62,025 nt of DNA from an uncultured virus (IMG/VR IMGVR_UViG_3300028840_007129) (IMGVR_UViG_3300028840_007129), one strand, 5' to 3'. Shown: positions 35,304 to 47,296, counted from the first letter of the stretch. A program made the numbers and translations. The notes: a model not told the origin generated them from the letters alone.

Positions 35304-35319
35304 GAGTAACACCCCCTGT

Positions 35320-35337
35320 TTAGAGTATTGTACTCAT
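35320..35337 (-). promoter_or_regulatory. uORF MSTIL* within a start-occluding hairpin
   Basis: AAAGGAGGGAGG RBS; GACATGAGTA/TACTCATGTC 10-bp stem. Confidence 0.6.
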
Positions 35338-35360
35338 GTCCTCCCTCCTTTCGGATTTGG

Positions 35361-35437
35361 TGGCACCCCTGCCAGGACTTGAACCCGGACTCTCCTGGTC
35401 CGTAGCCAGACGCTTTATCCAGTTAAGCTACAGGGGC
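35361..35437 (-). tRNA. trnR: tRNA-Arg(ACG)
   Basis: TCTGG-CT ACG GA-CCAGG. Confidence 0.95.
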
Positions 35438-35473
35438 GTATAACTCATAGGAGGCCATCAAGCCCCTCAAAAA

Positions 35474-35548
35474 TGGTACACCCAGAAGGACTCGAACCTT
35501 CAACCCATCGGTTAAGAGCCGATTGCTCTACCATTGAGCCATGGGTGC
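35474..35548 (-). tRNA. trnK: tRNA-Lys(CTT)
   Basis: ATCGG-CT CTT AA-CCGAT. Confidence 0.95.
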
Positions 35549-35553
35549 ATATC

Positions 35554-35628
35554 TGGTACCCCCGCCAGGATTTGAACCTGGGACCCACGGTTTAAAAGAC
35601 CGCTGCGCTACCACTGCGCTACGAGGGC
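35554..35628 (-). tRNA. trnK: tRNA-Lys(TTT)
   Basis: GCGGT-CT TTT AA-ACCGT. Confidence 0.95.
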
Positions 35629-35630
35629 AT

Positions 35631-35667
35631 AAATAAAAAGACCCGCCTGATTTCTCGGGCGGGTCTT
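35631..35667 (-). terminator. attenuator 1 intrinsic terminator
   Basis: AGACCCGCC-C-GA-GAAA-TC-A-GGCGGGTCT followed by TTTTATTT. Confidence 0.9.
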
Positions 35668-35691
35668 CTGTTTCAGAATTTAAACTCTAAT

Positions 35692-35778
35692 TCAGACAGA
35701 CCCCGCCCGGTCACGCTTAACCCAGCGATCTATACGGTCACGTTTGACCCGGCGTACTATCTGAATTACAGTGCTCAT
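35692..35778 (-). CDS. leader peptide 1 (28 aa, leaderless mRNA)
   Basis: MSTVIQIVRRVKRDRIDRWVKRDRAGSV; ATG 7 nt after the -10 box; codons match cluster-1 tRNAs. Confidence 0.85.
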   Translation of the reverse strand: MSTVIQIVRRVKRDRIDRWVKRDRAGSV

Positions 35779-35785
35779 ACTGACA

Positions 35786-35814
35786 ATAATACCTTATTCT
35801 GGGCTTAAAGTCAA
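35786..35814 (-). promoter_or_regulatory. sigma70 promoter of tRNA cluster 1
   Basis: TTGACT-17-TATTAT. Confidence 0.85.
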
Positions 35815-35849
35815 TACCTAAAATGAAAAATTTTTCTGAAACTTTAAAG

Positions 35850-37043
35850 TCAGGTAATCGATATGATATTCGGGTTTGACCCGGATATGCTTAGTGTTTT
35901 CGTGGACTCAGATGAAGCTAATGGAGTTTCTCTTGGACAACTGTAGAATCCACATACATACGTAATAGGATGTTTGCTGGCAGAAACATAGGAAACTGCG
36001 TCCGGTACCTCGTCAGAGAAGGCCAATATAGTATCCGAGTTCCAATCAGCCTGACTGAAGATATCCTTGCTCCATGACGTTCTCAGATTCGCAATGACAA
36101 CGGAAGTAATGATACCAGCATCCACAAGATCCTTATAAGATTGTGCCTGCTGGACATCTCCTACCATCATCATCACATCAACTCCTGTGCCACACTTCTC
36201 CCGATACTTTTTTATAAGCTCCCTCATAAAGGTTGTCTTGCCGATGTTTCTGAGATTACCGCAGTCAATGTTCAAAATACCGTTTGACCGGCTATTATCC
36301 CATTGGGACTTTAATAGCTCAAGACCCATGGCGTTTTTGAAACTCTTGAAATCTAGGTCACTCGGCTTGATGCACGTGATATCGAAAGCACTAATACAAG
36401 GACCCATGACACCCTCTCCCATTCTTCTGGGTTTGAAGGCATCTCTTTCGAATGCGGCAATGTCGTTAAGAAATGTGCGACAGGTGAAAGAGATGCTGTC
36501 ATCGTTATTAGCTGGGTCCTTTGAGACAAGGGGCTCTAATTTATTGAAAGCTGAATGTTCCCTTATAAGGCCATCACCAGTTTGAAAGGTCCAAAATTTG
36601 TAGAGCATTGCATATGGGGCCACTTTCTTATCAGGATTGCGATAGAAGTAATTAGTCTCTTTGTCATAGAGACAGTCAGCTAGTAACTTGAAGGCCACCT
36701 GAATATGGGTTATTGCCGGTGATAGACATATCTCGCGTATCATGGTATCGAAACGAAGTTCTGCGTTCCATTCGAAGACAGCCTGCCTTACAGAATAACG
36801 TATCTGGTCCAGATACATTGTAGGGATGGCGAAAAGGAAGTCCTTTACCCATTCATTGTACGTTTTTGGAAGCGTACCGGGGAATTCTCCAAAAGTGTAG
36901 GATTTCATTTTCCTATCATCTACAGAGCTCCAGTCGAGCTTGTAGATAGATGTAGACCCAGACTCTTCAGATCCAGGCTTGAAGCTAACGTCTTCGAGAT
37001 GAATGAGTTGGGGGAAGAATAGGGGACGAGAGAAGCGTAACAT
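35850..37043 (-). CDS. hypothetical protein with degenerate P-loop
   Basis: GNLRNIGKTT ... FSDE; AGGAGG RBS. Confidence 0.7.
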   Translation of the reverse strand: MLRFSRPLFFPQLIHLEDVSFKPGSEESGSTSIYKLDWSSVDDRKMKSYTFGEFPGTLPKTYNEWVKDFLFAIPTMYLDQIRYSVRQAVFEWNAELRFDTMIREICLSPAITHIQVAFKLLADCLYDKETNYFYRNPDKKVAPYAMLYKFWTFQTGDGLIREHSAFNKLEPLVSKDPANNDDSISFTCRTFLNDIAAFERDAFKPRRMGEGVMGPCISAFDITCIKPSDLDFKSFKNAMGLELLKSQWDNSRSNGILNIDCGNLRNIGKTTFMRELIKKYREKCGTGVDVMMMVGDVQQAQSYKDLVDAGIITSVVIANLRTSWSKDIFSQADWNSDTILAFSDEVPDAVSYVSASKHPITYVCGFYSCPRETPLASSESTKTLSISGSNPNIISIT

Positions 37044-37165
37044 GGCACACCTCCTGTGCTTGTACCGGGTAAGACAAAATACCGCAGACCTTCTGCGGTT
37101 ACCACAAGCGCAGGAATTATTAATAAATTATTGATATTTTCGTAAGAGTAACAAAGGAGGCCGCC

Positions 37166-37315
37166 ATGGCTGCAACAACAACCGATGCTCAGATGGGTCA
37201 GACTAAGGGTTCTATATCTCCTACGATAGGAGTATATAAGGAGACGTATACGTGGGTTCTTGATACGAAAACGAATGTCCCCGTGGCCGTGAGGAAGTCG
37301 GTCACTATAGGGTAA
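37166..37315 (+). CDS. 49-aa hypothetical protein (not in ORF track)
   Basis: AAGGAGG RBS; MAATTTDAQMGQ... Confidence 0.6.
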   Translation: MAATTTDAQMGQTKGSISPTIGVYKETYTWVLDTKTNVPVAVRKSVTIG

Positions 37316-37466
37316 CACCGTTTTCTAGGGCTCTTCTATACGTGTTTATGGCCCTTCTGTAGTCTTCTGAAGAGACCCTTCTCTTCTTAGAATCCTTTAA
37401 TCTGTCTCTGAACCGTTCTGCGTCTTTTCCACGTAGTATAGGCGTGTCTTTTATTGGAAGGGCCAT
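37305..37466 (-). CDS. 53-aa basic protein (not in ORF track)
   Basis: GGAG RBS; MALPIKDTPILRGKDAERFR... Confidence 0.6.
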   Translation of the reverse strand: MALPIKDTPILRGKDAERFRDRLKDSKKRRVSSEDYRRAINTYRRALENGVTL

Positions 37467-37495
37467 AGGTCATCTCCAAATAAAAAAGGGGCCAA

Positions 37496-38074
37496 TCAGG
37501 CCCCTGCTACGTATGGCTTCAGGATTTTATCGACGTAGAAACGGTGAGATATCTTATTCGGGTTGTAGGCGAACCTGAATACAGCGTAATCACCCTTCCT
37601 TACGGTCGGTACTGCTGGCTTCCGAATGAGTTCAAGACCAACCTCCTCCGGTAGCTTGTTACGCTTGACCACGACATTGTGATGCCTGCAACAGCATACG
37701 CAGTTCTCATAAGATGTTGCACCACCCTTCTCTCTGGGGGTGACGTGGTCAATCGTCCTTTCGTTCTCCGTACAAGTATAGGCGAACCTTTTACCGTCTT
37801 TGGTATAGTGCCAGTACTGACACTGGTTCTTGTCCCTGTTGTAGACCCCGTGGTCACTGTAAGGGACCCTGTCAGACTTGATACGATATGAAACGAAGTG
37901 GACAAGCCTTACGACGAGAGGAATCTTGAATCTTACTTCGAAGCTGCGGACCTCTTCGTCGTCCTTGGATACGAGTACCTCAATCTTATCCTTCACAAGC
38001 CACTTGATGGCTTTCTTGAGGTCTACTTCGGTCCAGTACTCGTAATTGCGGTTAAGAACGACTACAGAATACAT
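37496..38074 (-). CDS. HNH endonuclease (McrA-like)
   Basis: VVVLN, RDKNQCQY, TIDHVTPREKGG, NCVCCC. Confidence 0.88.
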   Translation of the reverse strand: MYSVVVLNRNYEYWTEVDLKKAIKWLVKDKIEVLVSKDDEEVRSFEVRFKIPLVVRLVHFVSYRIKSDRVPYSDHGVYNRDKNQCQYWHYTKDGKRFAYTCTENERTIDHVTPREKGGATSYENCVCCCRHHNVVVKRNKLPEEVGLELIRKPAVPTVRKGDYAVFRFAYNPNKISHRFYVDKILKPYVAGA

Positions 38075-38105
38075 AGCGGGGACTAATCCTTTCTGCGAAT
38101 AAGTG

Positions 38106-38147
38106 TTAACAGAGCGTATCGTATTCTTCGTAATATTTTATTGTCAT
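38106..38147 (-). promoter_or_regulatory. uORF MTIKYYEEYDTLC* pairing with the HNH start region
   Basis: AAAGGAG RBS; ATTAC..AGAATAC complementary to GTATTCT-GTAGT at the HNH start. Confidence 0.55.
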
Positions 38148-38178
38148 TACGACTCCTTTCTTCTGCTGATAGTTCATA

Positions 38179-38251
38179 TGCCCCTAGCACGATTCGAACG
38201 TGCGACACCCGGTTTAGGAAACCAGTACTCTATCCCCTGAGCTATAGGGGC
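38179..38251 (-). tRNA. trnR: tRNA-Arg(CCT)
   Basis: CTGGT-TT CCT AA-ACCGG. Confidence 0.93.
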
Positions 38252-38258
38252 AAAAATA

Positions 38259-38335
38259 TGGCACGCCCGGCAGGATTCGAACCTGCGACCTACTGCTTAG
38301 AAGGCAGTTGCTCTATCCAGCTGAGCTACGGGCGC
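38259..38335 (-). tRNA. trnR: tRNA-Arg(TCT)
   Basis: ACTGC-CT TCT AA-GCAGT. Confidence 0.95.
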
Positions 38336-38344
38336 ACATCTCTA

Positions 38345-38431
38345 TGGCGGAGAGACCGAGATTCGAACTCGGGGTGCTTTTGGCACACACGCTCTCCAGG
38401 CGTGCTCCTTAGACCACTCGGACACCTCTCC
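38345..38431 (-). tRNA. trnS: tRNA-Ser(GGA)
   Basis: CACGC-CT GGA GA-GCGTG; long variable arm. Confidence 0.95.
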
Positions 38432-38833
38432 TTAGTCTCTCTCGTCGACACCAAGGTTGTACAAGACGTTCAAAAGTCTCCTCTTGATAATTTCTTCCGG
38501 AGTAATTGAGTTCCTCCGATAGAACAACATTATGATCGTATTATCGTTCAGAACGACTTTCCAATCGACGGTAATGGGAGAGCAAAGCTGCTTTCCGTTC
38601 CAGACGAAATCGAACTTGTAGTTCTTTTCAACATATTTGATTTTACCGGATCTGGCGTCGTCCACAAGCTCCCGGAAGATCTCGATCTTCCTGTTGATGT
38701 AATCATCCCGACGGTTGTAATCGTCTTCTCTGTGATTGAAATCCTCGTCACCCCTTCTTTCTTCATCATAGTCTTCAGGGTGGTTGATTCTCTGATTTAG
38801 TTCTCTGAGCGAAGGGTCTCCATTACCGTTCAT
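38432..38833 (-). CDS. hypothetical protein
   Basis: 133 aa, coupled to upstream ORF. Confidence 0.7.
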   Translation of the reverse strand: MNGNGDPSLRELNQRINHPEDYDEERRGDEDFNHREDDYNRRDDYINRKIEIFRELVDDARSGKIKYVEKNYKFDFVWNGKQLCSPITVDWKVVLNDNTIIMLFYRRNSITPEEIIKRRLLNVLYNLGVDERD

Positions 38834-39021
38834 ACACCTACCTGCTTGGATGTTAATGTTAACGCAATACCTATGGGCTGACTTTTAGGTTCAAGCCGCT
38901 GGAGTTTGACTGTTTTGTTCTCTAGGAATTTCAATTCCCCTACAATCTCCTGAGCCTTTTCCCTCGCAGCGATATCGTCCATAGCCTTCATTGGTATCCG
39001 AACGATAAGCTGATAGTCCAT
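38830..39021 (-). CDS. hypothetical protein
   Basis: AGGAG RBS, 63 aa. Confidence 0.65.
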   Translation of the reverse strand: MDYQLIVRIPMKAMDDIAAREKAQEIVGELKFLENKTVKLQRLEPKSQPIGIALTLTSKQVGV

Positions 39022-39063
39022 AGGGTAACTCCTGACCTAGAATATAATGTTTTATGCTGTAAG

Positions 39064-39146
39064 CGGAGAAGAGAGGACTCGAACCTCTGAGGCCTAGGGC
39101 CCTGCCGAATTTCGAATTCGGTTCCTCGACCTTCCGGACCTTCTCC
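39064..39146 (-). tRNA. trnS: tRNA-Ser(CGA)
   Basis: CCGAA-TT CGA AA-TTCGG; long variable arm. Confidence 0.88.
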
Positions 39147-39155
39147 TCTAGAAAA

Positions 39156-39233
39156 TGGTGGGCGTACCTGGACTTGAACCAGGGAACCTCCTCCTTATCA
39201 GAGAGGCGTTCTAACCAGCTGAACTATACGCCC
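39156..39233 (-). tRNA. trnI: tRNA-Ile(GAT)
   Basis: CCTCT-CT GAT AA-GGAGG. Confidence 0.93.
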
Positions 39234-39240
39234 AGAATAA

Positions 39241-39324
39241 TGGGAGTGTAAGGATTCGAACCTTCCTAGTCGTAAGACAACGGATTTACAGTCCGCCCCA
39301 GCTCACCGCCTCTGGCGCACTCCC
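39241..39324 (-). tRNA. trnY: tRNA-Tyr(GTA)
   Basis: GCGGA-CT GTA AA-TCCGT; long variable arm (bacterial type). Confidence 0.92.
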
Positions 39325-39332
39325 TTAATGAC

Positions 39333-39410
39333 TGGTACCGGAGGGCGGCCTTGAACCGCCGACTGACATACCTTATGAGGGTACCGCACTACCAACTGTG
39401 CTACTCCGGT
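39333..39410 (-). tRNA. trnM: tRNA-Met(CAT), probably elongator
   Basis: GTACC-CT CAT AA-GGTAT. Confidence 0.85.
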
Positions 39411-39415
39411 AGAAA

Positions 39416-39490
39416 TGGTTGCGGGGGCCGGACTCGAACCGGCGACCTTCGGGTTATGAGCCCGAAAAGCTACCACTGCTACACCCCGCT
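39416..39490 (-). tRNA. trnfM: initiator tRNA-fMet(CAT)
   Basis: three consecutive G-C pairs in anticodon stem; 1:72 mismatch. Confidence 0.9.
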
Positions 39491-39505
39491 ATAACTTCTG
39501 ATTAA

Positions 39506-39589
39506 TGCTCAGGACTGGATTTGAACCAGCATGGAGTTGCCCCCACGAGCTCCTGAAACTCGCGTGTCTACCACTTCCACCACCTGAGC
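39506..39589 (-). tRNA. trnL: tRNA-Leu(CAG)
   Basis: CGAGT-TT CAG GA-GCTCG. Confidence 0.92.
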
Positions 39590-39596
39590 GAAATCT

Positions 39597-39674
39597 TGGG
39601 GTGATCGAGGGGTTTCGAACCCCCAACCTCTGGAGCCACAGTCCAGTGCTCTAACCTATTGAGCTACAATCACC
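39597..39674 (-). tRNA. trnH: tRNA-His(GTG)
   Basis: CTGGA-CT GTG GC-TCCAG; G-1:C73. Confidence 0.95.
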
Positions 39675-39698
39675 ATGTATGTTCTTGTACAACCCAGA

Positions 39699-39710
39699 AT
39701 GTCAAAGAAC
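39699..39710 (-). promoter_or_regulatory. boxA-like antitermination site
   Basis: GTTCTTTGACAT. Confidence 0.55.
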
Positions 39711-39711
39711 T

Positions 39712-39796
39712 TGGCGGAGAGACGGGGACTCGAACCCCGAAGGCCAATGGCCGGTAGTTTTCAAGACTACTGGATTACCGATTATCCTATCTCTCC
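39712..39796 (-). tRNA. trnS: tRNA-Ser(TGA)
   Basis: GTAGT-CT TGA AA-ACTAC. Confidence 0.92.
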
Positions 39797-39803
39797 ATAA
39801 AAG

Positions 39804-39888
39804 AGACGTGGACTGGATTTGAACCAGCGCGTGACTCCCGTCAAATGGTTTTGCAGACCACTGCCTTCGACCACTCGGCCACCACGTC
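39804..39888 (-). tRNA. trnC: tRNA-Cys(GCA) with atypical long variable arm
   Basis: GTGGT-CT GCA AA-ACCAT; U73; variable stem TGAC-GGGA-GTCA. Confidence 0.88.
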
Positions 39889-39893
39889 ATAAC

Positions 39894-39980
39894 TGGCAGA
39901 GGAGACAGGATTCGAACCTGTGGTGGTTTTGCCACATCGGTTTAGCAAACCGACGCCTTAAGCCTCTCGGCCACTCCTCC
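39894..39980 (-). tRNA. trnS: tRNA-Ser(GCT)
   Basis: TCGGT-TT GCT AA-ACCGA. Confidence 0.95.
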
Positions 39981-39989
39981 ATACTTTCA

Positions 39990-40072
39990 TGGCTGGGACA
40001 GGCATCGAACCTGCACGAGTTTTCCTCACCAGATCCTAGGTCTGGCGCGTATACCAATTCCGCCACCCAGCC
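39990..40072 (-). tRNA. trnL: tRNA-Leu(TAG)
   Basis: CCAGA-CC TAG GA-TCTGG (C33). Confidence 0.88.
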
Positions 40073-40077
40073 TTACT

Positions 40078-40162
40078 TGGTGCCCAGGGCCCGACTTGAA
40101 CGGGCACGAGTATTCTCAGCAGGGTTTGAGGCTGCCGCGTATACCAATTCCGCCACCTGGGC
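40078..40162 (-). tRNA. trnL: tRNA-Leu(CAA)
   Basis: GCAGC-CT CAA AC-CCTGC (C31:C39 mismatch). Confidence 0.85.
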
Positions 40163-40420
40163 TTATTTTCTTCTCGCTCGCCACTCTGGCATAGGCTCGT
40201 TTACAATTTGTTCTCCGCCATAGTACCATATAAGTGGTTTAGAGTCCCAATGATACTTCCAGTCCCTTATATTCCAAGGGTCATAGTATTTACGATAAGA
40301 CTTTCCATTTGGTACATTGTCAGAATTTCTGACCCTACGATTAGCCTCACGCTTCTTAAACTTGGTAGACTTTTTTCCGTAACCGTCTAAGAACCAGGGC
40401 TCTCTGTAAGACCTTGACAT
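40163..40420 (-). CDS. small basic protein
   Basis: MSRSYR...KREANRRVR...NGKSYRKYYDPWNIRDW; AAGGAG RBS. Confidence 0.75.
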   Translation of the reverse strand: MSRSYREPWFLDGYGKKSTKFKKREANRRVRNSDNVPNGKSYRKYYDPWNIRDWKYHWDSKPLIWYYGGEQIVNEPMPEWRARRK

Positions 40421-40441
40421 GCTGTAGCTCCTTATTGAGTG

Positions 40442-40450
40442 TTACAACAT
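40442..40450 (-). promoter_or_regulatory. uORF ML* within a start-occluding hairpin
   Basis: AAAGGAGG RBS; CATGTTGTA/TACAGCATG stem covers the next ATG. Confidence 0.6.
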
Positions 40451-40474
40451 GCGGTCCTCCTTTCTTATGTAAAA

Positions 40475-40821
40475 TGGTAGCCGGGACGGGACTCGAACCC
40501 GTACGGACACAAGGTCCATTGGATTTTCTTACCACTACAGTTTTCACTGCCAGAAAACTTCTGTTTGTGGTCTGGACTGTCTCTTTACCATGTCTTACGA
40601 TTTAGGTAGGGGGTGTACAGTCTCTACACTCGGTTTTTTAACCTAGCACGGGATTGCCATCAACATTACTTGGAAGGTTTCCCCGTTTTAGCCCCCTGCA
40701 TTAATACCGTTTCCGGCATTAAGCTCAATACGGTGTTTTTAGACCTATATCTTGCAACCGGAATAGGTCAGAAAAAACTCCTTTCAAAGTCCAAAGTGTC
40801 TACCAGTTCCACCACCCGGCC
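40475..40821 (-). tRNA. trnL: tRNA-Leu(TAA) interrupted by a group I intron (exons 40787-40821 and 40475-40527)
   Basis: TTGGA-CT T^AA AA-TCCAA after removing the intron. Confidence 0.9.
40528..40786 (-). ncRNA. group I intron (259 nt, no ORF)
   Basis: 5' exon ends in U with P1 GGACUU/GAGUUU; intron ends in G; P7-type GAGACUG...AAGAGACAGUCC. Confidence 0.88.
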
Positions 40822-40829
40822 ATCAAAAA

Positions 40830-40916
40830 TGGTGCGGTCGACTGGACTTGAACCAGCATGGAGTAGCCTCCACTAGGCCCTCAACCTAGCGCGTATACCA
40901 ATTCCACCACGACCGC
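40830..40916 (-). tRNA. trnL: tRNA-Leu(GAG)
   Basis: CTAGG-TT GAG GG-CCTAG. Confidence 0.95.
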
Positions 40917-40926
40917 AAAGTTAAAA

Positions 40927-41074
40927 GAGTCACACTCTAGTCATCGAGCACAATTTTTCACAGTTCTTGAGACTGTTGCCTGTACCAATTCGGCTATCCC
41001 CCCATAAAAATGGTGGGGGGAGAAGGAATTGAACCTTCATGAATGTACGCCCGCATAGTTAGGGAGTGTGACCC
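40927..41074 (-). ncRNA. circularly permuted tRNA-Leu(CAA)-like RNA
   Basis: T arm + TCCCCCC-A-CCA (41038-41011) precedes GGGGGGA + D arm + anticodon arm (41003-40960); flanks pair over 11 bp. Confidence 0.8.
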
Positions 41075-41079
41075 TAATA

Positions 41080-41090
41080 TTTCAAAGAAC
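41080..41090 (-). promoter_or_regulatory. boxA-like antitermination site
   Basis: GTTCTTTGAAA. Confidence 0.55.
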
Positions 41091-41092
41091 GA

Positions 41093-41168
<76 letters not shown>

Positions 41169-41210
41169 ACTAAAATCATCCTCCATGTATTACCCCAGTA
41201 CAACTCCTTA

Positions 41211-41247
41211 AAAACAAAAACCCCCGCCTGATTTCTCTGGCGGGGGT
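41211..41247 (-). terminator. attenuator 2 intrinsic terminator
   Basis: ACCCCCGCC-A-GA-GAAA-TC-A-GGCGGGGGT followed by TTTTGTTTT. Confidence 0.9.
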
Positions 41248-41274
41248 CCTCTGATTCCTTATTTTTGGTATCAG

Positions 41275-41385
41275 TTAGCTTGGATCCCCCGCCGTGCTTA
41301 GCATAATAAAATAGGAGCACAACGACAGACTAAGGTCCGCGTGTGAACTCCTTAAATGCATGCTTCTGGGGGTAACTGAACGCAT
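41275..41385 (-). CDS. leader peptide 2 (36 aa)
   Basis: AGGAG RBS; MRSVTPRSMHLRSSHADLSLSLCSYFIMLSTAGDPS; codons match cluster-2 tRNAs. Confidence 0.85.
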   Translation of the reverse strand: MRSVTPRSMHLRSSHADLSLSLCSYFIMLSTAGDPS

Positions 41386-41413
41386 AACTCCTACTTTGTT
41401 CAAATTCTCTGTA

Positions 41414-41442
41414 AGTATACATCAAATTCCGGGCCATGTCAA
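41414..41442 (-). promoter_or_regulatory. sigma70 promoter of tRNA cluster 2
   Basis: TTGACA-17-TATACT. Confidence 0.9.
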
Positions 41443-41583
41443 TAGAAAAAATGTTCTGACTAAAAAAAGGGGTCTTTGGCATCTACAGCCCTGATTGTCT
41501 TTCCATCTATTCTCAAGAATCTAAGTGGCTTGATAGCTGGATTAGGATTCTTCGGTTGTTCCTTCTGGCCCTCTCCGCCCCCT

Positions 41584-41988
41584 TTAGAAAGGTTTATATC
41601 GATATTTCCTCAGCACATATTTGAAGATGATGCTATTCAGTTCTCTAGTTGTCTTTGAACTTTGGACCCAGTCTTTGATATCGTCAGGATGGTCAGGCGG
41701 GTATATTCCGAGCTCTCTAATAATATCAAGGCCTTCTTCAGAATTGTAGTATTCAACGAGTTTCCAGAGTACCCGTTCGGTTCTCTTATTTAATGATATA
41801 ACCTCTCCGTTTCGATGTCTATTGCAAATGCCCAGTATATATTTCCATTGCTGGACACCACCAGATTTTCTCGTTATCTCACTAAATAAGTAGGAACGTA
41901 CACCAGTATAGAATGAGAGACGTTTGAGGCGAACTTCCTGTTCCATCTCTTCGTAATACTCTTCAAGAGTTTCCAAGGTCTTTTCCAT
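41584..41988 (-). CDS. hypothetical protein
   Basis: 134-aa ORF. Confidence 0.6.
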   Translation of the reverse strand: MEKTLETLEEYYEEMEQEVRLKRLSFYTGVRSYLFSEITRKSGGVQQWKYILGICNRHRNGEVISLNKRTERVLWKLVEYYNSEEGLDIIRELGIYPPDHPDDIKDWVQSSKTTRELNSIIFKYVLRKYRYKPF

Positions 41989-42037
41989 ATGTTCAGTTTT
42001 ACCTGAATAATGGTAGTAAAAGATTATTGAAAAATAA

Positions 42038-42109
42038 AGCCGGTATCCGGATTTGAACCGAAAACCTGCTGTTTACGAAACAGCTGCTCTACCTTTGAGC
42101 TATACCGGC
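42038..42109 (-). tRNA. trnT: tRNA-Thr(CGT)
   Basis: GCTGT-TT CGT AA-ACAGC. Confidence 0.92.
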
Positions 42110-42115
42110 AGAATA

Positions 42116-42193
42116 TGGAGCCGACAGCAGGAGTCGAACCCGCAACAACTTGAGTACAAATCAAGTGCTCTGAGCCATTTGAGCTATGTCGGC
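42116..42193 (-). tRNA. trnT: tRNA-Thr(TGT)
   Basis: CTTGA-TT TGT AC-TCAAG. Confidence 0.92.
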
Positions 42194-42210
42194 ACTGATA
42201 ATCTATTTAT

Positions 42211-42543
42211 ATGAACGACTTAGGTATGAAAACCGCTACAAAAGCCCCCGGAGAAAAGCTCATCAGCGGTGATGGCTACTATATGATAAAGCCCCCTAAG
42301 GGCTATAAGGGCAAGACTTACATAGATGGCCGGTACATTTATGAGCACCGGTATATTATGGAGAAAAAGCTTGGAAGGCCCCTAAAATATAATGAGAACA
42401 TAGATCACATAAATGGTAATAAATTGGACAACAGACCCTCGAATCTAAGGCTCCTCTCAAGGGCCAAGCACACTCAACATACAAAGCCCGCCAAAAAGGC
42501 CAGAAGTATCGTAGAGGCCTACCTCAAACTACAAGCCTCTTAG
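42211..42543 (+). CDS. HNH endonuclease
   Basis: YEHRYIME...HINGNKLDNRPSNL. Confidence 0.88.
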   Translation: MNDLGMKTATKAPGEKLISGDGYYMIKPPKGYKGKTYIDGRYIYEHRYIMEKKLGRPLKYNENIDHINGNKLDNRPSNLRLLSRAKHTQHTKPAKKARSIVEAYLKLQAS

Positions 42544-43844
42544 CCTCTACCCTTTTACCGATTTTTATATCTACAAAGACCGTCCCAGGGTTATCCTGGC
42601 CTGGCTGAATAATAGTGGTATTACCGAGTTTGGCCTTCCATGTATTACTCACCCACGGAGACTCGTGTATATGGCCGCAGAGGACGAGTAGCGGCTGTTC
42701 TCTTTCTATCCATTTTCTGACGGAATCTGACCCGACTCTCCTATAACCCAGACACACATCAAGGTTCAGGCCTGATGGGGGGCAATGAATCGCAGCTATT
42801 ACTTTCGGCCCTCCAGGAAATGTCTTGAGATCATCTTCAATGGTGCCCTTGTTCTTGAAATATTCATGGGGGTCTTCAACCACAACGAAGCCCCCATCGG
42901 TGACATCGACGGGCTTACCGGTATAGGGTTCCTCAAGAAACCATCCCTGATGGTCTATTTTGCATGCTGTTTTTAACCCGAAGCGATAATCAGGGACATA
43001 CCCATAAGCAGTAAAAAAGTAGCCGCCGAACCCCATTTACCGTCGTGCTTTCCGGCGCACAATCTCATCCATCACCGTCTGCGCATCCATCGAGGTATCC
43101 AGGCCAAGCCACTCCCCGAATTTGCGGACCGAGCACTCCGGCACCTGCGTTTCAAGCAGCCACATGAAATTGGGCGACAGACGTGCCAGGTGAATGGACG
43201 GTTATTCACCCCCTCCCCAGCAGGAACCCGTCATCCGCAAGCGCACCAATTACCCCTATGAGGAGGCAGTTGCCGGGGATCAACATTTAACATTGAGCAC
43301 CGAGACAATTTCTGCATTCATTCGTAAGCCATTATTATTTAATGAGTTGTCTTGGTTGTTGCCGGGAAATTATTTGCTGCTTGCCGATGCAACATTTAAC
43401 ATGCGGGTCTACGGGATTTAACACCATTGGCCTTCCTGAAGGCAAAAAACCTGCCGCCGATCGGGTTTGCTACCGGGAAACTCGGCGGGTACTTCCGGCG
43501 GGTTTTTGGGCTCGCGAACGTGCCCACAAGTGGCGGATTTTGAAGGACCCTACCGGGGTTTCATCGAGAAGAGACGCATATTCGAGGAGGTATCTCTTTC
43601 GGGTATAGATATCATCATTTCCGAAGAAAGCCAGGACCTTTATACCCGATTCGGAGCATTTTAGATAGAATTCCTTGAGGTAATTTCTTATGAATGCTTT
43701 TTGTTCTTTTAATATCTCAGGACCTTTTGGTAGAATATCTGCCCCAATATGAATAAGGTCTATACCGTTATCATAAGCATACTGATAGACATCATCGTAT
43801 TTTCTTTGATTGCCGTGAAGATCCGTAGCGTATAGAAATCTCAT
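42524..43844 (-). pseudogene. calcineurin-like metallophosphoesterase split by a 517-bp insertion
   Basis: N-half TDLHG, GAD, GNDD; C-half HCPP, LCGHIHE; removing the insert restores the frame (ETPVGFGGYFF). Confidence 0.85.
43030..43550 (-). mobile_element. foreign insertion flanked by GGGT direct repeat, with cos- or att-arm-like motifs
   Basis: GC-richer; GGGTCCT-17 bp-dyad TGGGC..GCCCA; ATGTTAAATGTTG x2; IHF-like AT-rich site. Confidence 0.6.
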
Positions 43845-43859
43845 GTAAAATCCTTTGAG

Positions 43860-43931
43860 AGCGACAGGCCGGGATTGAACCGGCGACATCTACCTTGGCA
43901 AGGTAGCATTCTACCACTGAATTACTGTCGC
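43860..43931 (-). tRNA. trnG: tRNA-Gly(GCC)
   Basis: CTACC-TT GCC AA-GGTAG. Confidence 0.95.
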
Positions 43932-43941
43932 AAAGGGTTAA

Positions 43942-44016
43942 TGGAGCGGGATGTCGGGTTCGAACCGACGGCGTCAACCTTGGAAGGGTTGCATTCTACC
44001 ACTGAATTAATCCCGC
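43942..44016 (-). tRNA. trnG: tRNA-Gly(TCC)
   Basis: CAACC-CT TCC AA-GGTTG. Confidence 0.95.
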
Positions 44017-44026
44017 TAGATTACAA

Positions 44027-44102
44027 TGGAGCGGAAGACGGGGTTCGAACCCGCGACAACCTGCTTGGGAAGCAGGAACTCTACCACCTGAGCTACTTCC
44101 GC
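44027..44102 (-). tRNA. trnG: tRNA-Gly(CCC)
   Basis: CCTGC-TT CCC AA-GCAGG. Confidence 0.95.
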
Positions 44103-44103
44103 A

Positions 44104-44256
44104 TCAGTCCCAAATATCATCCTCCTCATTATCCTCTAATGAAAACGTATCCATCTCAATACTCTGGTCTTCGTCGTCTTCGTCTACCTCATCATCAAAT
44201 CCGCTGAAGCAGCTCATCATTTCAAGATGGTGGCTCTCATAATCATCGTCATACAT
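44104..44256 (-). CDS. 50-aa extremely acidic peptide (not in ORF track)
   Basis: MYDDDYESHHLEMMSCFSGFDDEVDEDDEDQSIEMDTFSLEDNEEDDIWD. Confidence 0.55.
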   Translation of the reverse strand: MYDDDYESHHLEMMSCFSGFDDEVDEDDEDQSIEMDTFSLEDNEEDDIWD

Positions 44257-44421
44257 TTTATCTTTTCCCGGATGAAGGTTGCAGCTTACTTTTCAGCTGG
44301 ATCATACAATCGGGAAAAACCCTACGGCAAGATGAATTTTTCGCTTACAAGCAACTCTAATGTTCCCAACGGGTTACATTCATAATAATCTATCGATAAT
44401 GGGTATTATTTACAAAAAGTA

Positions 44422-44494
44422 TGGAACCAGTCGGGATCGAACCGACGACCTCCTGCTTGCAAAGCAGGCGCTCTCCCAATTGAGCTATGGCCCC
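44422..44494 (-). tRNA. trnA: tRNA-Ala(TGC)
   Basis: CCTGC-TT TGC AA-GCAGG; G3.U70. Confidence 0.95.
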
Positions 44495-44503
44495 ATAGAA
44501 AAA

Positions 44504-44560
44504 TGGAATCGGCCGGGATCGAACCGGCGACCTCAACGCTGCCAGCGTTGCTACGACCCC
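44504..44560 (-). tRNA. trnA: D-armless tRNA-Ala(GGC) (possibly pseudo)
   Basis: GGGGTCG-TAG-CAACG CT GGC AG CGTTG-AGGTC-T arm-CGATTCC-A; 57 nt. Confidence 0.75.
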
Positions 44561-44604
44561 AGGCGCTATTGATATGAGATCCTTCCATACTTTATTTTTC
44601 CGGT

Positions 44605-45015
44605 ATGGCAGACACACTTCTTCTTATCTCAGAATCTGGCGGCGGAGTCTTCAGGATTTCTACTGGCACTCTCAAAAATCCCGGTGATTTTCAGAGAGAT
44701 AAAACTATAGAAATCTCTGACCAGAATCCTTTTATGCTTTGGAATCTCCTCTATGAGATGGCATCCCTACCTATTCCTCGTCATCCCATCGAAACTAAGC
44801 CTGAAAAGGCTACAAGGGACGATGGCGAGTTCATGGGAATGACAGGAAAACAGGTCATAGATGAGGTGTACAAGCGCACGGGCATTCTCATAACTATAAG
44901 CCCTAAGAGCAAAGAACGAATTGTAAAAAAGGCTAAAGAGCTCATCGATCTTTCTCAGCTCCCCAAAAATGAGAATATAGCCTCGCCCGGAATTGAACCG
45001 GGGTGTACGGCTTGA
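44605..45015 (+). CDS. hypothetical protein sharing the rIIB C-terminal repeat domain
   Basis: MTGKQVIDEVYKRTGILITISPKSKERIVKKA. Confidence 0.7.
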   Translation: MADTLLLISESGGGVFRISTGTLKNPGDFQRDKTIEISDQNPFMLWNLLYEMASLPIPRHPIETKPEKATRDDGEFMGMTGKQVIDEVYKRTGILITISPKSKERIVKKAKELIDLSQLPKNENIASPGIEPGCTA

Positions 45016-45050
45016 AGGGCCGTTGGACTAGACCACTATCCTACGAGGCC
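44978..45050 (-). tRNA. trnE: tRNA-Glu(TTC)
   Basis: ACGGC-CC TTC AA-GCCGT (C33). Confidence 0.88.
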
Positions 45051-45376
45051 TTTTTTTCCACTGATGCCTTAAGAAGAGGGACAGCAATAGTCTTTATGAT
45101 TATTTCGAGGGCTTTTATGAAATAGGCCCTCTTGAATCTTCTTATTTTTAGGCCCCTCGTCGCTATAACACCATTTACCATAGCTGCAAGGTGCATCAAA
45201 TTAATCTGATGCTTTTCGGGATGGTCAGAGGTAATGGATAAAACCTTTTCTCTGGCTACATCAAGAGATAGTTGTTTTAGAAACTCCTGGTCTTCTTCAA
45301 ACCACAGGTCACTCACGCTTTCACGCATGAGCCCAAAAATCTCTTGCTGCAACTTCTCAATAGTTTCATTATTCAC
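45041..45376 (-). CDS. hypothetical protein
   Basis: 111 aa. Confidence 0.7.
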   Translation of the reverse strand: MNNETIEKLQQEIFGLMRESVSDLWFEEDQEFLKQLSLDVAREKVLSITSDHPEKHQINLMHLAAMVNGVIATRGLKIRRFKRAYFIKALEIIIKTIAVPLLKASVEKKAS

Positions 45377-45379
45377 TTT

Positions 45380-45610
45380 TCAGTCTCCTGCTGCCGTGGA
45401 ATCTGCTTGATTCACGAGTTTTTGGAACTGTTCAGCAGTCTGGATTCTTATTCTTTTTGAATCGCTATCCAGATTTTGGTCATTTTTAACATAGTTCCTG
45501 TACTCGGGCAGGATAACTCGTGTATAACTGTCTACAGCTTTGATGAAGGACCTATTCGAGGAGCAGCTAACAAGGGATAGAATCGAAACAACAACGATTA
45601 TACGCTTCAT
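45380..45610 (-). CDS. lipoprotein
   Basis: signal peptide with lipobox LVS-C. Confidence 0.75.
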   Translation of the reverse strand: MKRIIVVVSILSLVSCSSNRSFIKAVDSYTRVILPEYRNYVKNDQNLDSDSKRIRIQTAEQFQKLVNQADSTAAGD

Positions 45611-45628
45611 GTTTACCCCTTATTGTAA

Positions 45629-45705
45629 TGGAGCCCACGATCGGGCTTGAACCGATGAACCTCATCCTTACCAAGGATGTGCTCTACCAACTGAGCTACA
45701 TGGGC
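45629..45705 (-). tRNA. trnT: tRNA-Thr(GGT)
   Basis: CATCC-TT GGT AA-GGATG. Confidence 0.95.
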
Positions 45706-45726
45706 TTTATCGAGTATCGATACAAT

Positions 45727-46500
45727 CTAAAATTCGAACTTCTGACCTTTACTAACAAAGCCAGAAAAACCGTCAGCTCTTGCATCGGGAAGGTCTTTGA
45801 GGGTGTTGTAATGATAGAGCCATATTTTCTTTTTCAACTCTGGTGCCAGGGTCTTTAAGTCCTCATAATGCGCGTGGACCCCGCTCTGATGTTGTGATGT
45901 CTCACAGTCATGGAAAACGACATCAGCCCCTTTTATGAAGTCTTTCAGCTGAGTCGGGGCAAATTGGGTATCTGAAGTTATAAAGATTGATGTCCCACTG
46001 ATAGGATCCTTAAATTTCAATCCGAAAGATTTCACAAAAGTAGCATCAGCAATAACGTGTATAGTTTGAACAGGTTTGAATACGCACCCATCAAATTCGA
46101 ATGAAGCATTGTTGGGAACCCCGACCGTATCAAAGAAGGTCTCCAGAGTGGCATCCTTAAGCTGAATGGAATCCAAGCCACCCCGCAAGGATTGATTCCA
46201 AAGGTCTTTGATTAACATGGAATTTGCAAACAACTTTGGCCTGAATCCCGTGTTTACGGTCTTGCAGAAGTAATTCAGAAAGGCCATGTATTCCAGGCCG
46301 CCGATGTGGTCCGCATGAAGATGAGAGACATAGATAGCATCTATGTCTAAAGCTGAAAGGCCCTGCTCTTTCAAGGACCATCTAATATCTCCCCCACAAT
46401 CAAAGAGCATTTTCTTTCCGGAAGGGGTCTGAATAAGAGCGTTCGATTGGAAATTGTCCATACAGAATGCGGATCCGCTACCAAGAAAAGTTAAAATCAT
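45727..46500 (-). CDS. metallo-beta-lactamase-fold hydrolase (RNase Z/BN-like)
   Basis: FLGSGSAF, DCG, SHLHADHIGG, TSDT, HDCE, LYHY. Confidence 0.85.
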   Translation of the reverse strand: MILTFLGSGSAFCMDNFQSNALIQTPSGKKMLFDCGGDIRWSLKEQGLSALDIDAIYVSHLHADHIGGLEYMAFLNYFCKTVNTGFRPKLFANSMLIKDLWNQSLRGGLDSIQLKDATLETFFDTVGVPNNASFEFDGCVFKPVQTIHVIADATFVKSFGLKFKDPISGTSIFITSDTQFAPTQLKDFIKGADVVFHDCETSQHQSGVHAHYEDLKTLAPELKKKIWLYHYNTLKDLPDARADGFSGFVSKGQKFEF

Positions 46501-47009
46501 TCTTCTTCTCCTATCAATAGGTCGATAGCTTTTTTAACGTCTTCCTTACGTATACCCTTCCTGCTATCCGTTTTAACAAGTCTATCCATATGCGGGGGTA
46601 TATCGTAAGAGTCATCATCGAGAACAATATAGCTATCGATCTCGAATCCATTCTTCTTGGCGTTATCTAACCAGAAGTCTATCTCTGAGCCTCGACCGAA
46701 AGGCTTACCATCTTTTTTATCCTCTTCCTTCTCATTTATTGAAAAAGATGGCGTTTTGCCTATGATGCTGGATCCATCAAATGGTTCCGGATTAGCCACA
46801 TAACAACCCCAACGGTCGCCCCCACTGCAGAAAAGCTCTTTGAGATTGTTAACCGTCAGGCCCTTCCTCCAGGTGCTCGTTACTACGATTTTAGCACCTG
46901 TACGTTCCAGGATGGTGTTAAGACGTCTCATACAGATAGGGTCAAAATAGCAGAATCTTGTCCTGTCCGTACAGACGACACCATCGATATCAAGGAAGAT
47001 AATTTTCAT
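46497..47009 (-). CDS. HAD-family phosphatase (RNA-repair-associated type)
   Basis: IFLDIDGV, VTSTWR, RGSEI, YIVLDD. Confidence 0.82.
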   Translation of the reverse strand: MKIIFLDIDGVVCTDRTRFCYFDPICMRRLNTILERTGAKIVVTSTWRKGLTVNNLKELFCSGGDRWGCYVANPEPFDGSSIIGKTPSFSINEKEEDKKDGKPFGRGSEIDFWLDNAKKNGFEIDSYIVLDDDSYDIPPHMDRLVKTDSRKGIRKEDVKKAIDLLIGEEE

Positions 47010-47282: not shown

Positions 47283-47296
47283 TAATTTCAAAAATT

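What the first reader, a model, noticed from the sequence alone, without database searches (positions are those of the whole stretch)
40927..41074. Circularly permuted (two-piece) tRNA-Leu(CAA)-like gene
On the minus strand the 3' half (GAAGG-TTCAATT-CCTTC-TCCCCCC-A-CCA) comes first, then a 7-nt linker TTTTTAT, then the 5' half (GGGGGGA-TA-GCCGAATTGGTACAGGC-A-ACAGT-CTCAAGA-ACTGT). The acceptor strands pair perfectly over 7 bp, and the outer flanks GGGTCACACTC/GAGTGTGACTC pair over 11 bp, closing a long irregular helix where the variable arm would be. Permuted tRNAs are known from some algae and an archaeon, and two-piece tmRNAs from bacteria; I know of no phage example. Inference: RNase P plus 3' trimming gives a two-piece tRNA, either functional or a decoy for anticodon nucleases.
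Basis: partly seen in the sequence, partly recalled or inferred. Interest (0 to 1): 0.85.

Follow-up and report, generated by a model that had tools for sequence, protein, structure and literature searches.

The report
Back-to-front tRNA look-alike in phage
A huge phage carries, inside its row of tRNA genes, a complete leucine-type tRNA whose two halves are encoded in swapped order; it is a new variant of the known tRNA-mimicking "Y RNA-like" small RNAs, and it may still work as a two-piece tRNA.

Summary
On the minus strand, 41074..40927 reads in this order: stem strand, T arm, 3' acceptor strand, A-CCA, a 7-nt U-rich linker, 5' acceptor strand, D arm, anticodon arm (CAA), stem strand. The acceptor pairs 7/7. 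The flanks pair far better than shuffles do. The same DNA stands in two metagenome contigs and in contigs of two sequencing runs.

It is not unique. Pattern and covariance-model searches found the same swapped design in many phage contigs, often inside tRNA arrays, twice inside GOLLD RNAs, and in Myxococcota genomes. There the whole architecture, including a two-part closing stem plus an anticodon arm, is backed by compensatory changes. The closest known kind is YrlA, the tRNA-like Y RNA. M. smegmatis YrlA is cut by RNase P and receives CCA.

The window element fails the YrlA membership tests: no Rfam hit, no GNCGAA handle, no Ro60 gene found in 62 kb. It is open at the variable arm, not at the anticodon.

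Best reading (0.5): a tRNA mimic cut by RNase P into two pieces. Main rival (0.25): a working two-piece tRNA-Leu. Expression is untested.

This scan has found orphan YrlA-like mimics in other phages before. I rate this a new variant of a known kind.

The parts
41064..41074 (-). 5' strand of the outer closing helix (11 bp, one G-U)
   Evidence: Sequence; fold; only two copies of this 11-mer in the window, this one and its partner
41048..41057 (-). 5' strand of the inner closing helix (3 bp, a bulged G, 6 bp)
   Evidence: MFE and centroid folds; the same 3 + 5 bp layout appears in the Myxococcota group with compensatory changes
41039..41047 (-). Unpaired 9 nt; the last one (41039) is U48, the Levitt partner of A15
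   Evidence: Fold; 15:48 is A:U in 28 and G:C in 8 of 36 permuted units, never mismatched
41022..41038 (-). T arm (5 bp stem, loop TTCAATT)
41011..41021 (-). 3' acceptor strand TCCCCCC, discriminator A73, encoded CCA (41013-41011)
41004..41010 (-). Linker TTTTTAT that closes the acceptor stem. Inferred RNase P site lies between 41004 (U-1) and 41003 (G+1)
   Evidence: Sequence; U at -1 in 18 of 36 tRNAs of the array; RNase P cleavage itself is inferred from M. smegmatis YrlA (PMC4201824)
40997..41003 (-). 5' acceptor strand GGGGGGA
   Evidence: 7/7 Watson-Crick pairs with 41015-41021
40978..40996 (-). U8, A9 and the D arm (3-bp stem, loop GAATTGGTACA with G18 G19), of the same type as the array's ordinary Leu tRNAs
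40960..40976 (-). Anticodon arm: 5-bp stem, loop CTCAAGA, anticodon CAA at 40969-40967
40942..40950 (-). 3' strand of the inner closing helix
40927..40937 (-). 3' strand of the outer closing helix
41093..41168 (-). Upstream neighbour tRNA-Phe(GAA), 18 nt before the element (context, probably the same transcript)
40830..40916 (-). Downstream neighbour tRNA-Leu(GAG), 10 nt after the element (context)

Best explanation
The 148-nt stretch is a real gene for a circularly permuted but complete tRNA-shaped RNA. SHOWN: its 5' and 3' ends can pair in a two-part stem (11 bp, an internal loop, then 3+6 bp with a bulged G). That stem stands where the long variable arm of a leucine tRNA would be. Inside it lie the T arm, a 7-bp acceptor stem closed by A-CCA plus UUUUUAU, a Leu-type D arm and an anticodon arm (CAA). 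INFERRED: it is transcribed on the minus strand with the tRNA array. RNase P cuts before G at 41003 and exonucleases trim the linker back to CCA (41011). The CCA end can be repaired by the phage CCA-adding enzyme encoded 6.5 kb away. The product is a two-piece L-shaped RNA held together by the acceptor stem and about 20 bp of closing stem. It belongs to the broad class of permuted tRNA mimics whose described members are the YrlA Y RNAs. I think it most likely acts as a tRNA mimic: a bait or platform for proteins that read the acceptor end, elbow and anticodon loop of tRNA, within the phage's contest with the host over tRNA damage and repair. I think it less likely to be a needed decoder.
For: Anatomy and statistics are. 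The DNA is reproduced in other assemblies.

The design recurs. Of 28 hits to a pattern that left acceptor pairs 6:67 and 7:66 free, 24 form both pairs and 26 have a 5/5 T stem. ARAGORN calls no tRNA over them, except for 3 ordinary tRNA-Tyr hits. Further units occur in a 618-kb phage record.

Tertiary signature across the two halves, in 36 distinct units: U8 in 36/36, A14 in 36/36, and 15:48 as A:U in 28 and G:C in 8, never mismatched.

Four Myxococcota elements found with the window's own covariance model share the full architecture: outer helix, inner 3+5 bp helix, T arm, closed acceptor, D arm and anticodon arm. In that group 16 of 36 pairs keep pairing through changes on both sides, including 6 of 9 outer-helix pairs.

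The triplet in the anticodon position differs among close orthologs: UGA, CGG, UUG and UCG in one group, GAA and GUU in another. Many phage members have no anticodon arm at all. Together these point to mimicry rather than decoding for the class.

The window already has an ordinary tRNA-Leu(CAA) at 40078-40162.

There is precedent for cleavage: M. smegmatis YrlA has a 7-bp acceptor stem, is cut by RNase P in vitro, and is found in vivo as two halves with CCA added (PMC4201824, passages read).

The surrounding genes fit tRNA repair and counter-defence: a CCA-adding enzyme, a HAD_SAK_2 RNA-repair domain, a 2H phosphoesterase, a cREC domain, and NAD salvage genes.
Against: There is no expression or processing data. 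No RNA run holds the stretch, so transcription, RNase P cleavage and the two-piece state are all inferred.

All copies of this particular element are identical, so it has no covariation of its own.

A broad flank-duplex test did not separate family members from ordinary tandem tRNA junctions: 3 of 21 against 1 of 40 at z <= -2.5. In the second Myxococcota group the outer parts showed no covariation support.

The element lacks what defines YrlA. There is no Rfam YrlA hit at E <= 10. The only GNCGAA lies inside the D arm. No TROVE or DUF2828 protein turned up among 64 of the 80 candidate ORFs scanned.

Unlike most mimics, it keeps every feature of a working leucine tRNA: A73, A15:U48, G18G19, U33, G37, a 5-bp anticodon stem and an encoded CCA. 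This fits the decoding rival just as well.
Confidence: 0.5

Rival explanations
1. It is a working two-piece elongator tRNA-Leu(CAA). After RNase P cleavage and trimming, LeuRS charges the CCA end; LeuRS does not read the anticodon or the variable arm (recalled knowledge of E. coli LeuRS identity). The RNA then reads UUG on the ribosome, with the split closing stem serving as an over-long variable arm.
For: All canonical tRNA positions are intact: a 7-bp acceptor stem, A73, CCA, U8, A14, A15:U48, G18G19, T loop TTCAATT, a 5-bp anticodon stem, and U33 and G37. The D arm is of the same type as in the array's ordinary Leu tRNAs. Spacing, the U-rich leader and the encoded CCA match the neighbouring tRNAs. 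ARAGORN calls the swapped sequence tRNA-Leu(caa) when introns are allowed. A canonical anticodon arm follows the D arm in 6 of 21 distinct units of the first set, far more than chance. One unit inside a GOLLD RNA has the triplet CUA, which no decoy of a normal host tRNA would need.
Against: It duplicates an ordinary tRNA-Leu(CAA) in the same array. In related bacterial elements the triplet is not conserved between close orthologs. The core and the closing stem are separated by 9 + 9 unpaired bases, and the arm is over 20 bp long, which is unlike any known variable arm. ARAGORN in default mode and the Rfam tRNA model do not accept it (18.4 bits against a threshold of 29).
Confidence: 0.25
2. 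It is an uncut Y RNA. The acceptor stem stays closed, the bulged closing stem docks a Ro60-like or other partner encoded outside the 62-kb window, and the RNA tethers that protein as bacterial Y RNAs do.
For: The architecture matches Myxococcota elements that sit beside YrlA-like units and a vWA-domain protein. The closest phage core (53 bits to the window's model) lies downstream of a DUF2828/DUF7788/Ro60-vWA-like gene. Most YrlA RNAs are thought not to be cut by RNase P (10.1101/312249, passages read).
Against: No TROVE, DUF2828, Band-7 or vWA partner was found in the window. TROVE and DUF2828 are absent from 5 of 5 records that hold other members, though 4 of those are fragments. The 7-bp stem, A73-CCA and U at -1 are what RNase P prefers, and they are the features that made M. 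smegmatis YrlA cleavable (PMC4201824).
Confidence: 0.1
3. It is a dead remnant: two tandem copies of one tRNA-Leu gene that lost the outer halves, or another rearrangement, without function.
For: It is redundant with the ordinary Leu(CAA). The array holds at least one other decayed-looking tRNA-like piece at 44507-44585. A relative's array has an ordinary Ser-TTTTAT-Leu(CAA) junction with a similar spacer. No diverged copy shows selection on this element.
Against: The flanks pair far better than chance. No base of the tRNA core is degraded. The same swapped design recurs in many unrelated phages and bacteria with compensatory and tertiary covariation. The 53 nt upstream and 43 nt downstream show no trace of the supposedly lost halves.
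Confidence: 0.08
4. It is a permuted precursor that is re-joined. The closing stem is cut, for example by RNase III or a phage nuclease. A phage RNA ligase then joins the ends, and the acceptor is opened, giving an ordinary one-piece tRNA by way of a circle, as in algae.
For: The gene order is the same as in algal and archaeal permuted tRNA genes (PMC3978253 abstract; PMC3218864 abstract). The window encodes RNA-end-healing domains, a 2H phosphoesterase and HAD_SAK_2.
Against: The stem has no bulge-helix-bulge motif. No splicing endonuclease or RNA ligase (RtcB, Rnl) was seen in the window. Bacteria are not known to have the endonuclease (10.1101/312249, passage read).
Confidence: 0.05

Closest known systems
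YrlA (Y RNA-like A; Rfam RF02553), above all M. smegmatis YrlA (Chen et al. 2014, PMC4201824; structure paper 10.1101/312249)
   Same: A tRNA-like domain encoded in swapped order (T arm, acceptor stem closed by a loop, D arm) with the RNA's two ends paired in a stem. The tRNA tertiary pairs are kept, including a covarying 15:48. The M. smegmatis member has a 7-bp acceptor stem, is cut by RNase P, and ends in CCA, so it exists as two pieces. YrlA RNAs are reported in 22 bacteriophages.
   Different: The window element is open at the variable arm and keeps a full anticodon arm with a canonical 7-nt loop, whereas YrlA is open at the anticodon stem. CCA is encoded rather than added. The GNCGAAN0-1G handle is missing, no Ro60 gene was found in 62 kb, and the Rfam model gives no hit at E <= 10. 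It sits inside a 36-tRNA array.
Circularly permuted tRNA genes of red and green algae, a nucleomorph, Thermofilum pendens and prasinovirus BpV1 (PMC3978253 and PMC3218864, abstracts; PMC3673656, passages)
   Same: The 3' half is encoded upstream of the 5' half, a short linker joins CCA to position 1, and the termini pair.
   Different: Those precursors carry a bulge-helix-bulge motif. The splicing endonuclease cuts them and they are ligated into a circle, giving a one-piece tRNA. Here there is no such motif, and no such enzyme is known in bacteria or seen in the window.
Two-piece (permuted) tmRNA of alpha-proteobacteria, some beta-proteobacteria and cyanobacteria (Rfam RF04321; the biology is recalled, not read here)
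   Same: A permuted gene whose transcript is processed at the acceptor end into two base-paired pieces.
   Different: The window element has no tag reading frame or pseudoknots. It has G3:C70 instead of G3:U70, plus a real D arm and anticodon arm. There is no ARAGORN tmRNA call and no Rfam tmRNA hit.
Orphan YrlA-like tRNA mimics in phage tRNA arrays noted earlier by this scan (e1-5975302, e1-5651088, e1-6093666, e1-5958789, e1-5999151)
   Same: A swapped tRNA look-alike inside a phage tRNA array with no Ro60 gene.
   Different: As those notes describe them, the earlier cases are open at the anticodon or lack an anticodon. This one is a complete cloverleaf open at the variable arm, with CCA encoded.

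Membership tests
YrlA / bacterial Y RNA (RF02553) | tRNA-like domain with a T arm, an acceptor stem closed by a loop, and a D arm, in that order | tested here: met
YrlA / bacterial Y RNA (RF02553) | GNCGAAN0-1G motif near the 5' end (the presumed Ro60 contact; PMC4201824) | tested here: not met
   The only G-N-C-G-A-A in the 148 nt is at element positions 81-86, inside the D arm
YrlA / bacterial Y RNA (RF02553) | Encoded within about 4 kb of a Ro60 (TROVE) gene on the same strand | tested here: not met
   Pfam and PHROGs scans of 64 of the 80 candidate ORFs found no TROVE, DUF2828 or Ro60-vWA protein. tblastn with partners from related loci found nothing. The rest of the phage genome is not held.
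YrlA / bacterial Y RNA (RF02553) | Scores against the Rfam covariance model (gathering score 69 bits) | tested here: not met
   No YrlA match at E <= 10 in 40450-41200. Other family members reach 30-40 bits.
YrlA / bacterial Y RNA (RF02553) | RNA termini emerge from the anticodon stem | tested here: not met
   The termini emerge at the variable-arm position, and a complete anticodon arm is present
Permuted tRNA genes of algae and archaea | 3' half upstream of the 5' half, joined through the acceptor ends | tested here: met
Permuted tRNA genes of algae and archaea | Bulge-helix-bulge motif at the paired termini for the splicing endonuclease | tested here: not met
   The fold shows 11 bp, a 6x4 internal loop, 3 bp, a 1-nt bulge and 6 bp. 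There is no 3-nt bulge, 4-bp helix, 3-nt bulge.
Permuted tRNA genes of algae and archaea | Circular intermediate and a one-piece mature tRNA | not testable with these tools
   No RNA run holds the stretch
Two-piece tmRNA | G3:U70 alanine identity, a tag reading frame, and pseudoknots | tested here: not met
   G3:C70; no tmRNA call by ARAGORN or Rfam
Canonical bacterial-type tRNA-Leu (type II) | All cloverleaf helices and invariant bases: U8, A14, G18G19, U33, T loop, A73, CCA | tested here: met
Canonical bacterial-type tRNA-Leu (type II) | Contiguous 5'-to-3' order that tRNA models recognise | tested here: not met
   ARAGORN and Rfam call nothing here. The Rfam tRNA model gives 18.4 bits against a threshold of 29. 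On the swapped sequence ARAGORN in default mode finds 0 genes.
Canonical bacterial-type tRNA-Leu (type II) | Aminoacylation and use on the ribosome | not testable with these tools
   Needs bench work

The most novel reading that the evidence does not exclude
A bacteriophage makes a naturally two-piece elongator tRNA. The swapped Leu(CAA) gene is opened by RNase P, the two halves stay paired through the acceptor stem and a split, over-long variable arm, LeuRS charges it, and it reads UUG on the ribosome. Related complete, variable-arm-open units in other phages and inside GOLLD RNAs carry the triplets CUU, UGA, CCA and even CUA. They would then be a hidden set of decoding tRNAs, suppressors included, that every tRNA finder misses.
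Probability: 0.25. Interest if true: 0.85.

Novelty: new variant of a known kind. Interest (0 to 1): 0.55.

Why it matters
Standard tRNA finders and Rfam miss this element. The same swapped design turns up in many phage tRNA arrays, in huge phages, inside GOLLD RNAs and in bacterial chromosomes. This copy is the most tRNA-like version: a full cloverleaf with an anticodon and an encoded CCA, opened at the variable arm.

If such RNAs are mimics, they are an under-counted part of the phage-host contest over tRNA cleavage, repair and CCA ends, and here they work without Ro60. If some of them decode, phage tRNA repertoires and stop-codon suppression are being under-called.

Either way the element gives a clean, testable substrate: one RNase P cut predicted to the nucleotide, and a two-piece product.

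Tried and rejected
**Searches for relatives**
- Own genome: none is held.
- blastn of 601 nt against phage records: 105 records matched. In the 40 rows listed, the hits cover only the flanking Phe and Leu(GAG) genes.
- Exact acceptor pattern in IMG/VR: 6 loci, all terminator-like hairpins and no tRNA parts.
- Junction pattern with a free acceptor: 1 IMG/VR locus, an ordinary Phe-Leu tandem, and 2 metagenome loci that are the same phage.
- Relatives by CCA-adding enzyme (55-57% identity, L007-L010): no tRNA within 10 kb. The one long record has only ordinary tandem junctions.

**Expression**
- No RNA holder is listed for the stretch.
- Run X3 covers only 40659-40857, and X4 covers only parts of the flanking Leu(GAG) and Phe tRNA genes. 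Neither covers the element.
- Two "joints" (40553>41092 and 40817>40977) have sides of 20-21 letters at 80% likeness, and I take them as other organisms' tRNAs.

**Alternative identities considered**
- Mobile-element idea (terminal inverted repeats): the 11-mer has no further copy in the window, and I see no clean target duplication.
- tmRNA: rejected.

**Tests that did not help**
- Broad flank-duplex test over the family: not discriminating, 3 of 21 against 1 of 40.
- The second Myxococcota group gave no covariation for the outer parts.
- The model hit in LR756501 (L189, 33 bits) was not confirmed by my structural scan.
- blastn of the AT-rich phage's array against phage records matched only a tRNA-Ile.

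**Papers**
- PMC5062991 (Burroughs and Aravind 2016) is not held, so what it says about Ro/Band-7 systems is not used.
- Supplements of PMC4201824, which list the 22 phages and the YrlA alignments, were not opened.

Full report
**What is there.**
The window is part of a large phage. It encodes rIIA/rIIB-like proteins, a tape-measure-like protein, HNH endonucleases, NAD-salvage genes and RNA-repair genes. The best protein relative is a 735-kb uncultured phage at 37% identity. It carries an array of 36 ARAGORN tRNAs on the minus strand.

Between tRNA-Phe (41093-41168) and tRNA-Leu(GAG) (40830-40916) neither ARAGORN nor Rfam calls anything. In order it holds:
- an 11-nt stem strand, a 10-nt second stem strand and 9 unpaired bases ending in U;
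- the T arm, the 3' acceptor strand, A73 and CCA;
- a 7-nt linker TTTTTAT;
- the 5' acceptor strand, U8 and A9, a 3-bp D stem with an 11-nt loop holding GG, and A26;
- a 5-bp anticodon stem with loop CTCAAGA;
- 9 unpaired bases and the two partner stem strands.

**Is it more than chance?**
- The acceptor strands pair 7/7 with Watson-Crick pairs.
- A scan for a T arm followed by a complementary acceptor pair finds only this unit in the window.
- The free fold of the 148 nt returns the full expected architecture at -51.5 kcal/mol, with z = -3.55 and 0 of 200 shuffles as good.
- The flanks alone form a duplex of -27.3 kcal/mol against -14.2 +/- 3.2 for shuffles (0 of 2000). A contiguous helix of 12 or more occurs in 231 of 20000 shuffles.
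- When a script swapped the halves, ARAGORN in default mode found no gene. With introns allowed it called tRNA-Leu(caa) of 88 bases, treating the closing stem as the intron. The two pieces cofold into the cloverleaf at -53.3 kcal/mol.

**Is the DNA real?**
Two metagenome contigs hold the identical 176 bases between Phe and Leu(GAG). Contigs of 2831 and 2836 nt from runs of two studies cover 40450-41140 without a difference. Some of these may be the window's own source, so they exclude a one-off assembly slip rather than give independent biology. No RNA run holds the stretch, so expression could not be examined.

**Relatives.**
Nothing close exists in the phage records (40 of 105 rows seen). 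Nothing close was found in IMG/VR by exact-acceptor or junction patterns either.

It gave 3 loci with 7/7 acceptor pairing. One was an ordinary Leu-Leu tandem. The other two were copies of one truly swapped unit, with an acceptor, linker and D arm much like the window's.

A pattern that fixed only the T loop, five G:C acceptor pairs, A-CCA and U8-R9-G10 gave 20 IMG/VR loci and 8 genome loci. Results for these 28:
- The two unconstrained acceptor pairs both form in 24.
- The T stem is 5/5 in 26.
- Three are ordinary tRNA-Tyr genes.
- ARAGORN calls no tRNA over the rest.
- About half lie within 400 nt of ordinary tRNA genes.
- Two lie inside GOLLD RNAs, at 198.8 and 155.6 bits, in the variable linker of that model.
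- Seven of the 20 sources scanned give sub-threshold YrlA matches of 30-38 bits against a gathering score of 69.

In one 41-kb AT-rich phage, an array of such units follows a gene with DUF2828, DUF7788 and weak Ro60-vWA matches. A 618-kb phage record holds three further units with other acceptor sequences.

**Architecture with covariation.**
A covariance model built from the window element alone found matches in 12 of 73 genomes of one Myxococcota family.

Four of these elements align into the same design as the window: a 9-bp outer helix, 4 unpaired bases, a 3+5 bp inner helix, the T arm, a closed acceptor stem, the D arm, a 5-bp anticodon arm, and the return strands. Of 36 predicted pairs, 16 are kept through changes on both sides, including 6 of 9 in the outer helix and 3 of 5 in the anticodon stem. 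These four sit next to sub-threshold YrlA-like units. Two of the four (L181, L186) have a vWA-domain protein next to them at E <= 1e-5. A third (L179) has one at 4.7e-5, below the family's cut-off. None was found by L183, whose only neighbour with a match is an alpha/beta hydrolase.

A second group of five orthologs lies beside Band-7 proteins. It has an invariant core but shows no covariation support for its outer parts.

Across 36 distinct swapped units in all fetched loci, U8 and A14 are invariant. The 15:48 tertiary pair joins a base of the downstream half to a base of the upstream half. It is A:U in 28 units and G:C in 8, and never mismatched. This is what an L-shaped tRNA fold predicts. 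The window element has A15 and U48.

**What argues for mimic and what for decoder.**
A canonical anticodon arm (5 bp, a 7-nt loop, U33 and R37) follows the D arm in 6 of 21 distinct units of the first set, with triplets CAA, CUU (twice), UGA, GUU and CUA. It also occurs in most Myxococcota units and in one unit of the 618-kb phage. So the variable-arm-open, complete form is a recurrent type and not a freak.

But the triplet differs between close orthologs: UGA, CGG, UUG and UCG in one group, GAA and GUU in another. Many phage members are open at the anticodon or have no such arm. The window already has a normal tRNA-Leu(CAA). That points to mimicry of tRNA shape as the selected property of the class.

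Against this, the window copy keeps every position a leucine tRNA needs. It also matches its neighbours in leader style and encoded CCA: CCA is encoded in at least 25 of 36 tRNAs, and U stands at -1 in 18 of 36. The CUA unit is hard to explain as a decoy.

**Mechanism.**
Shown:
- the sequence, the fold and the recurrence of the design;
- covariation in equivalents from other genomes.

Inferred:
- co-transcription with the array, since a terminator-like hairpin lies upstream of Phe at 41244-41212 and nothing lies between Phe and the element;
- RNase P cleavage before G 41003;
- 3' trimming to CCA at 41011;
- persistence as two paired pieces.

The inference rests on M. smegmatis YrlA. Its 7-bp closed acceptor stem is cut by M1 RNA in vitro, and in vivo it is found as 65- and 82-nt halves with CCA added (PMC4201824, passages read).

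**Comparison with known kinds.**
The element works like YrlA, but it fails each YrlA membership test that could be run: the handle motif, the Ro60 neighbour, the Rfam model and the position of the opening.

It has the gene order of the algal and archaeal permuted tRNA genes, but it has no bulge-helix-bulge motif and no plausible splicing machinery (10.1101/312249, passage read).

It is not a tmRNA.

Five literature searches found no report of a swapped complete tRNA in a bacteriophage tRNA array. They did find YrlA in mycobacteriophages (PMC4201824), one permuted tRNA in the algal virus BpV1 (PMC3673656), and tRNAs embedded in GOLLD (PMC12990946, passage). The huge-phage survey does not mention such elements (PMC7162821, term search).

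Notes from this scan describe orphan YrlA-like mimics in other phage tRNA arrays. They agree with my reading and were seen after I had formed it.

**Verdict.**
This is a real, recurrent kind of RNA gene. This copy is a new variant: a complete cloverleaf, open at the variable arm, with CCA encoded and no partner gene found nearby. Its function is unresolved between tRNA mimic (my preference) and two-piece decoding tRNA.

Noticed in passing
window 40475-40820 (minus strand): A tRNA-Leu(UAA) that ARAGORN misses. Its exons flank a roughly 259-nt group I intron (about 40786..40528) placed between U34 and A35, the classic cyanobacterial and plastid position. Rfam Intron_gpI scores 37.6 bits, E = 6e-8, below the gathering score of 50. 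The exon borders were read by eye.
   Followed up: partly
window 44507-44585 (minus strand): A tRNA-like piece just upstream of tRNA-Ala. It has a good T arm, a 3' strand ending in CCA, and a 5-bp stem with loop CTGGCAG (triplet GGC), but no matching 5' acceptor strand or normal D arm. It is either a decayed tRNA or another odd form.
   Followed up: no
window 42524-43036 and 43470-43889 (minus strand); 42211-42543 (plus strand): A metallophosphoesterase appears split into an N-terminal ORF and a C-terminal ORF about 430 nt apart. This could be an intron or a broken gene. An HNH_3 endonuclease gene lies next to it on the other strand.
   Followed up: no
window 34324-47373: The 36 ARAGORN tRNAs plus the intron-bearing Leu(UAA) include no tRNA-Pro and no tRNA-Gln.
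   Followed up: no
window 35631-35663 and 41212-41244: A 33-nt terminator-like hairpin occurs twice at 88% identity, each time just upstream of a block of tRNA genes on the minus strand. The pair may mark transcription-unit borders within the array.
   Followed up: no
L152:324-810 and L171:12-525: Two GOLLD RNAs (Rfam 198.8 and 155.6 bits) carry a swapped tRNA look-alike in the variable linker of the model. Each look-alike has an anticodon-like arm, with triplet CUU in one and CUA in the other.
   Followed up: partly
L175, L176, L178, L180, L182, L187 (Myxococcota genomes): Swapped tRNA look-alikes lie directly upstream of Band-7/SPFH-domain genes on the same strand. The loop that closes the acceptor stem reads CCA in some orthologs and CUC or UGU in others.
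   Followed up: partly
window 45727-47009, 47614-49209, 51115-51705, 21088-21447, 56494-60133: The window holds a toolkit for tRNA repair and counter-defence. It includes an Apyc1-like MBL hydrolase, a HAD_SAK_2 protein, a CCA-adding enzyme with an HD domain, a 2H phosphoesterase and a cREC receiver. It also has the NAD genes NAPRTase and NAD synthase, and a Nudix-NrtR protein.
   Followed up: partly
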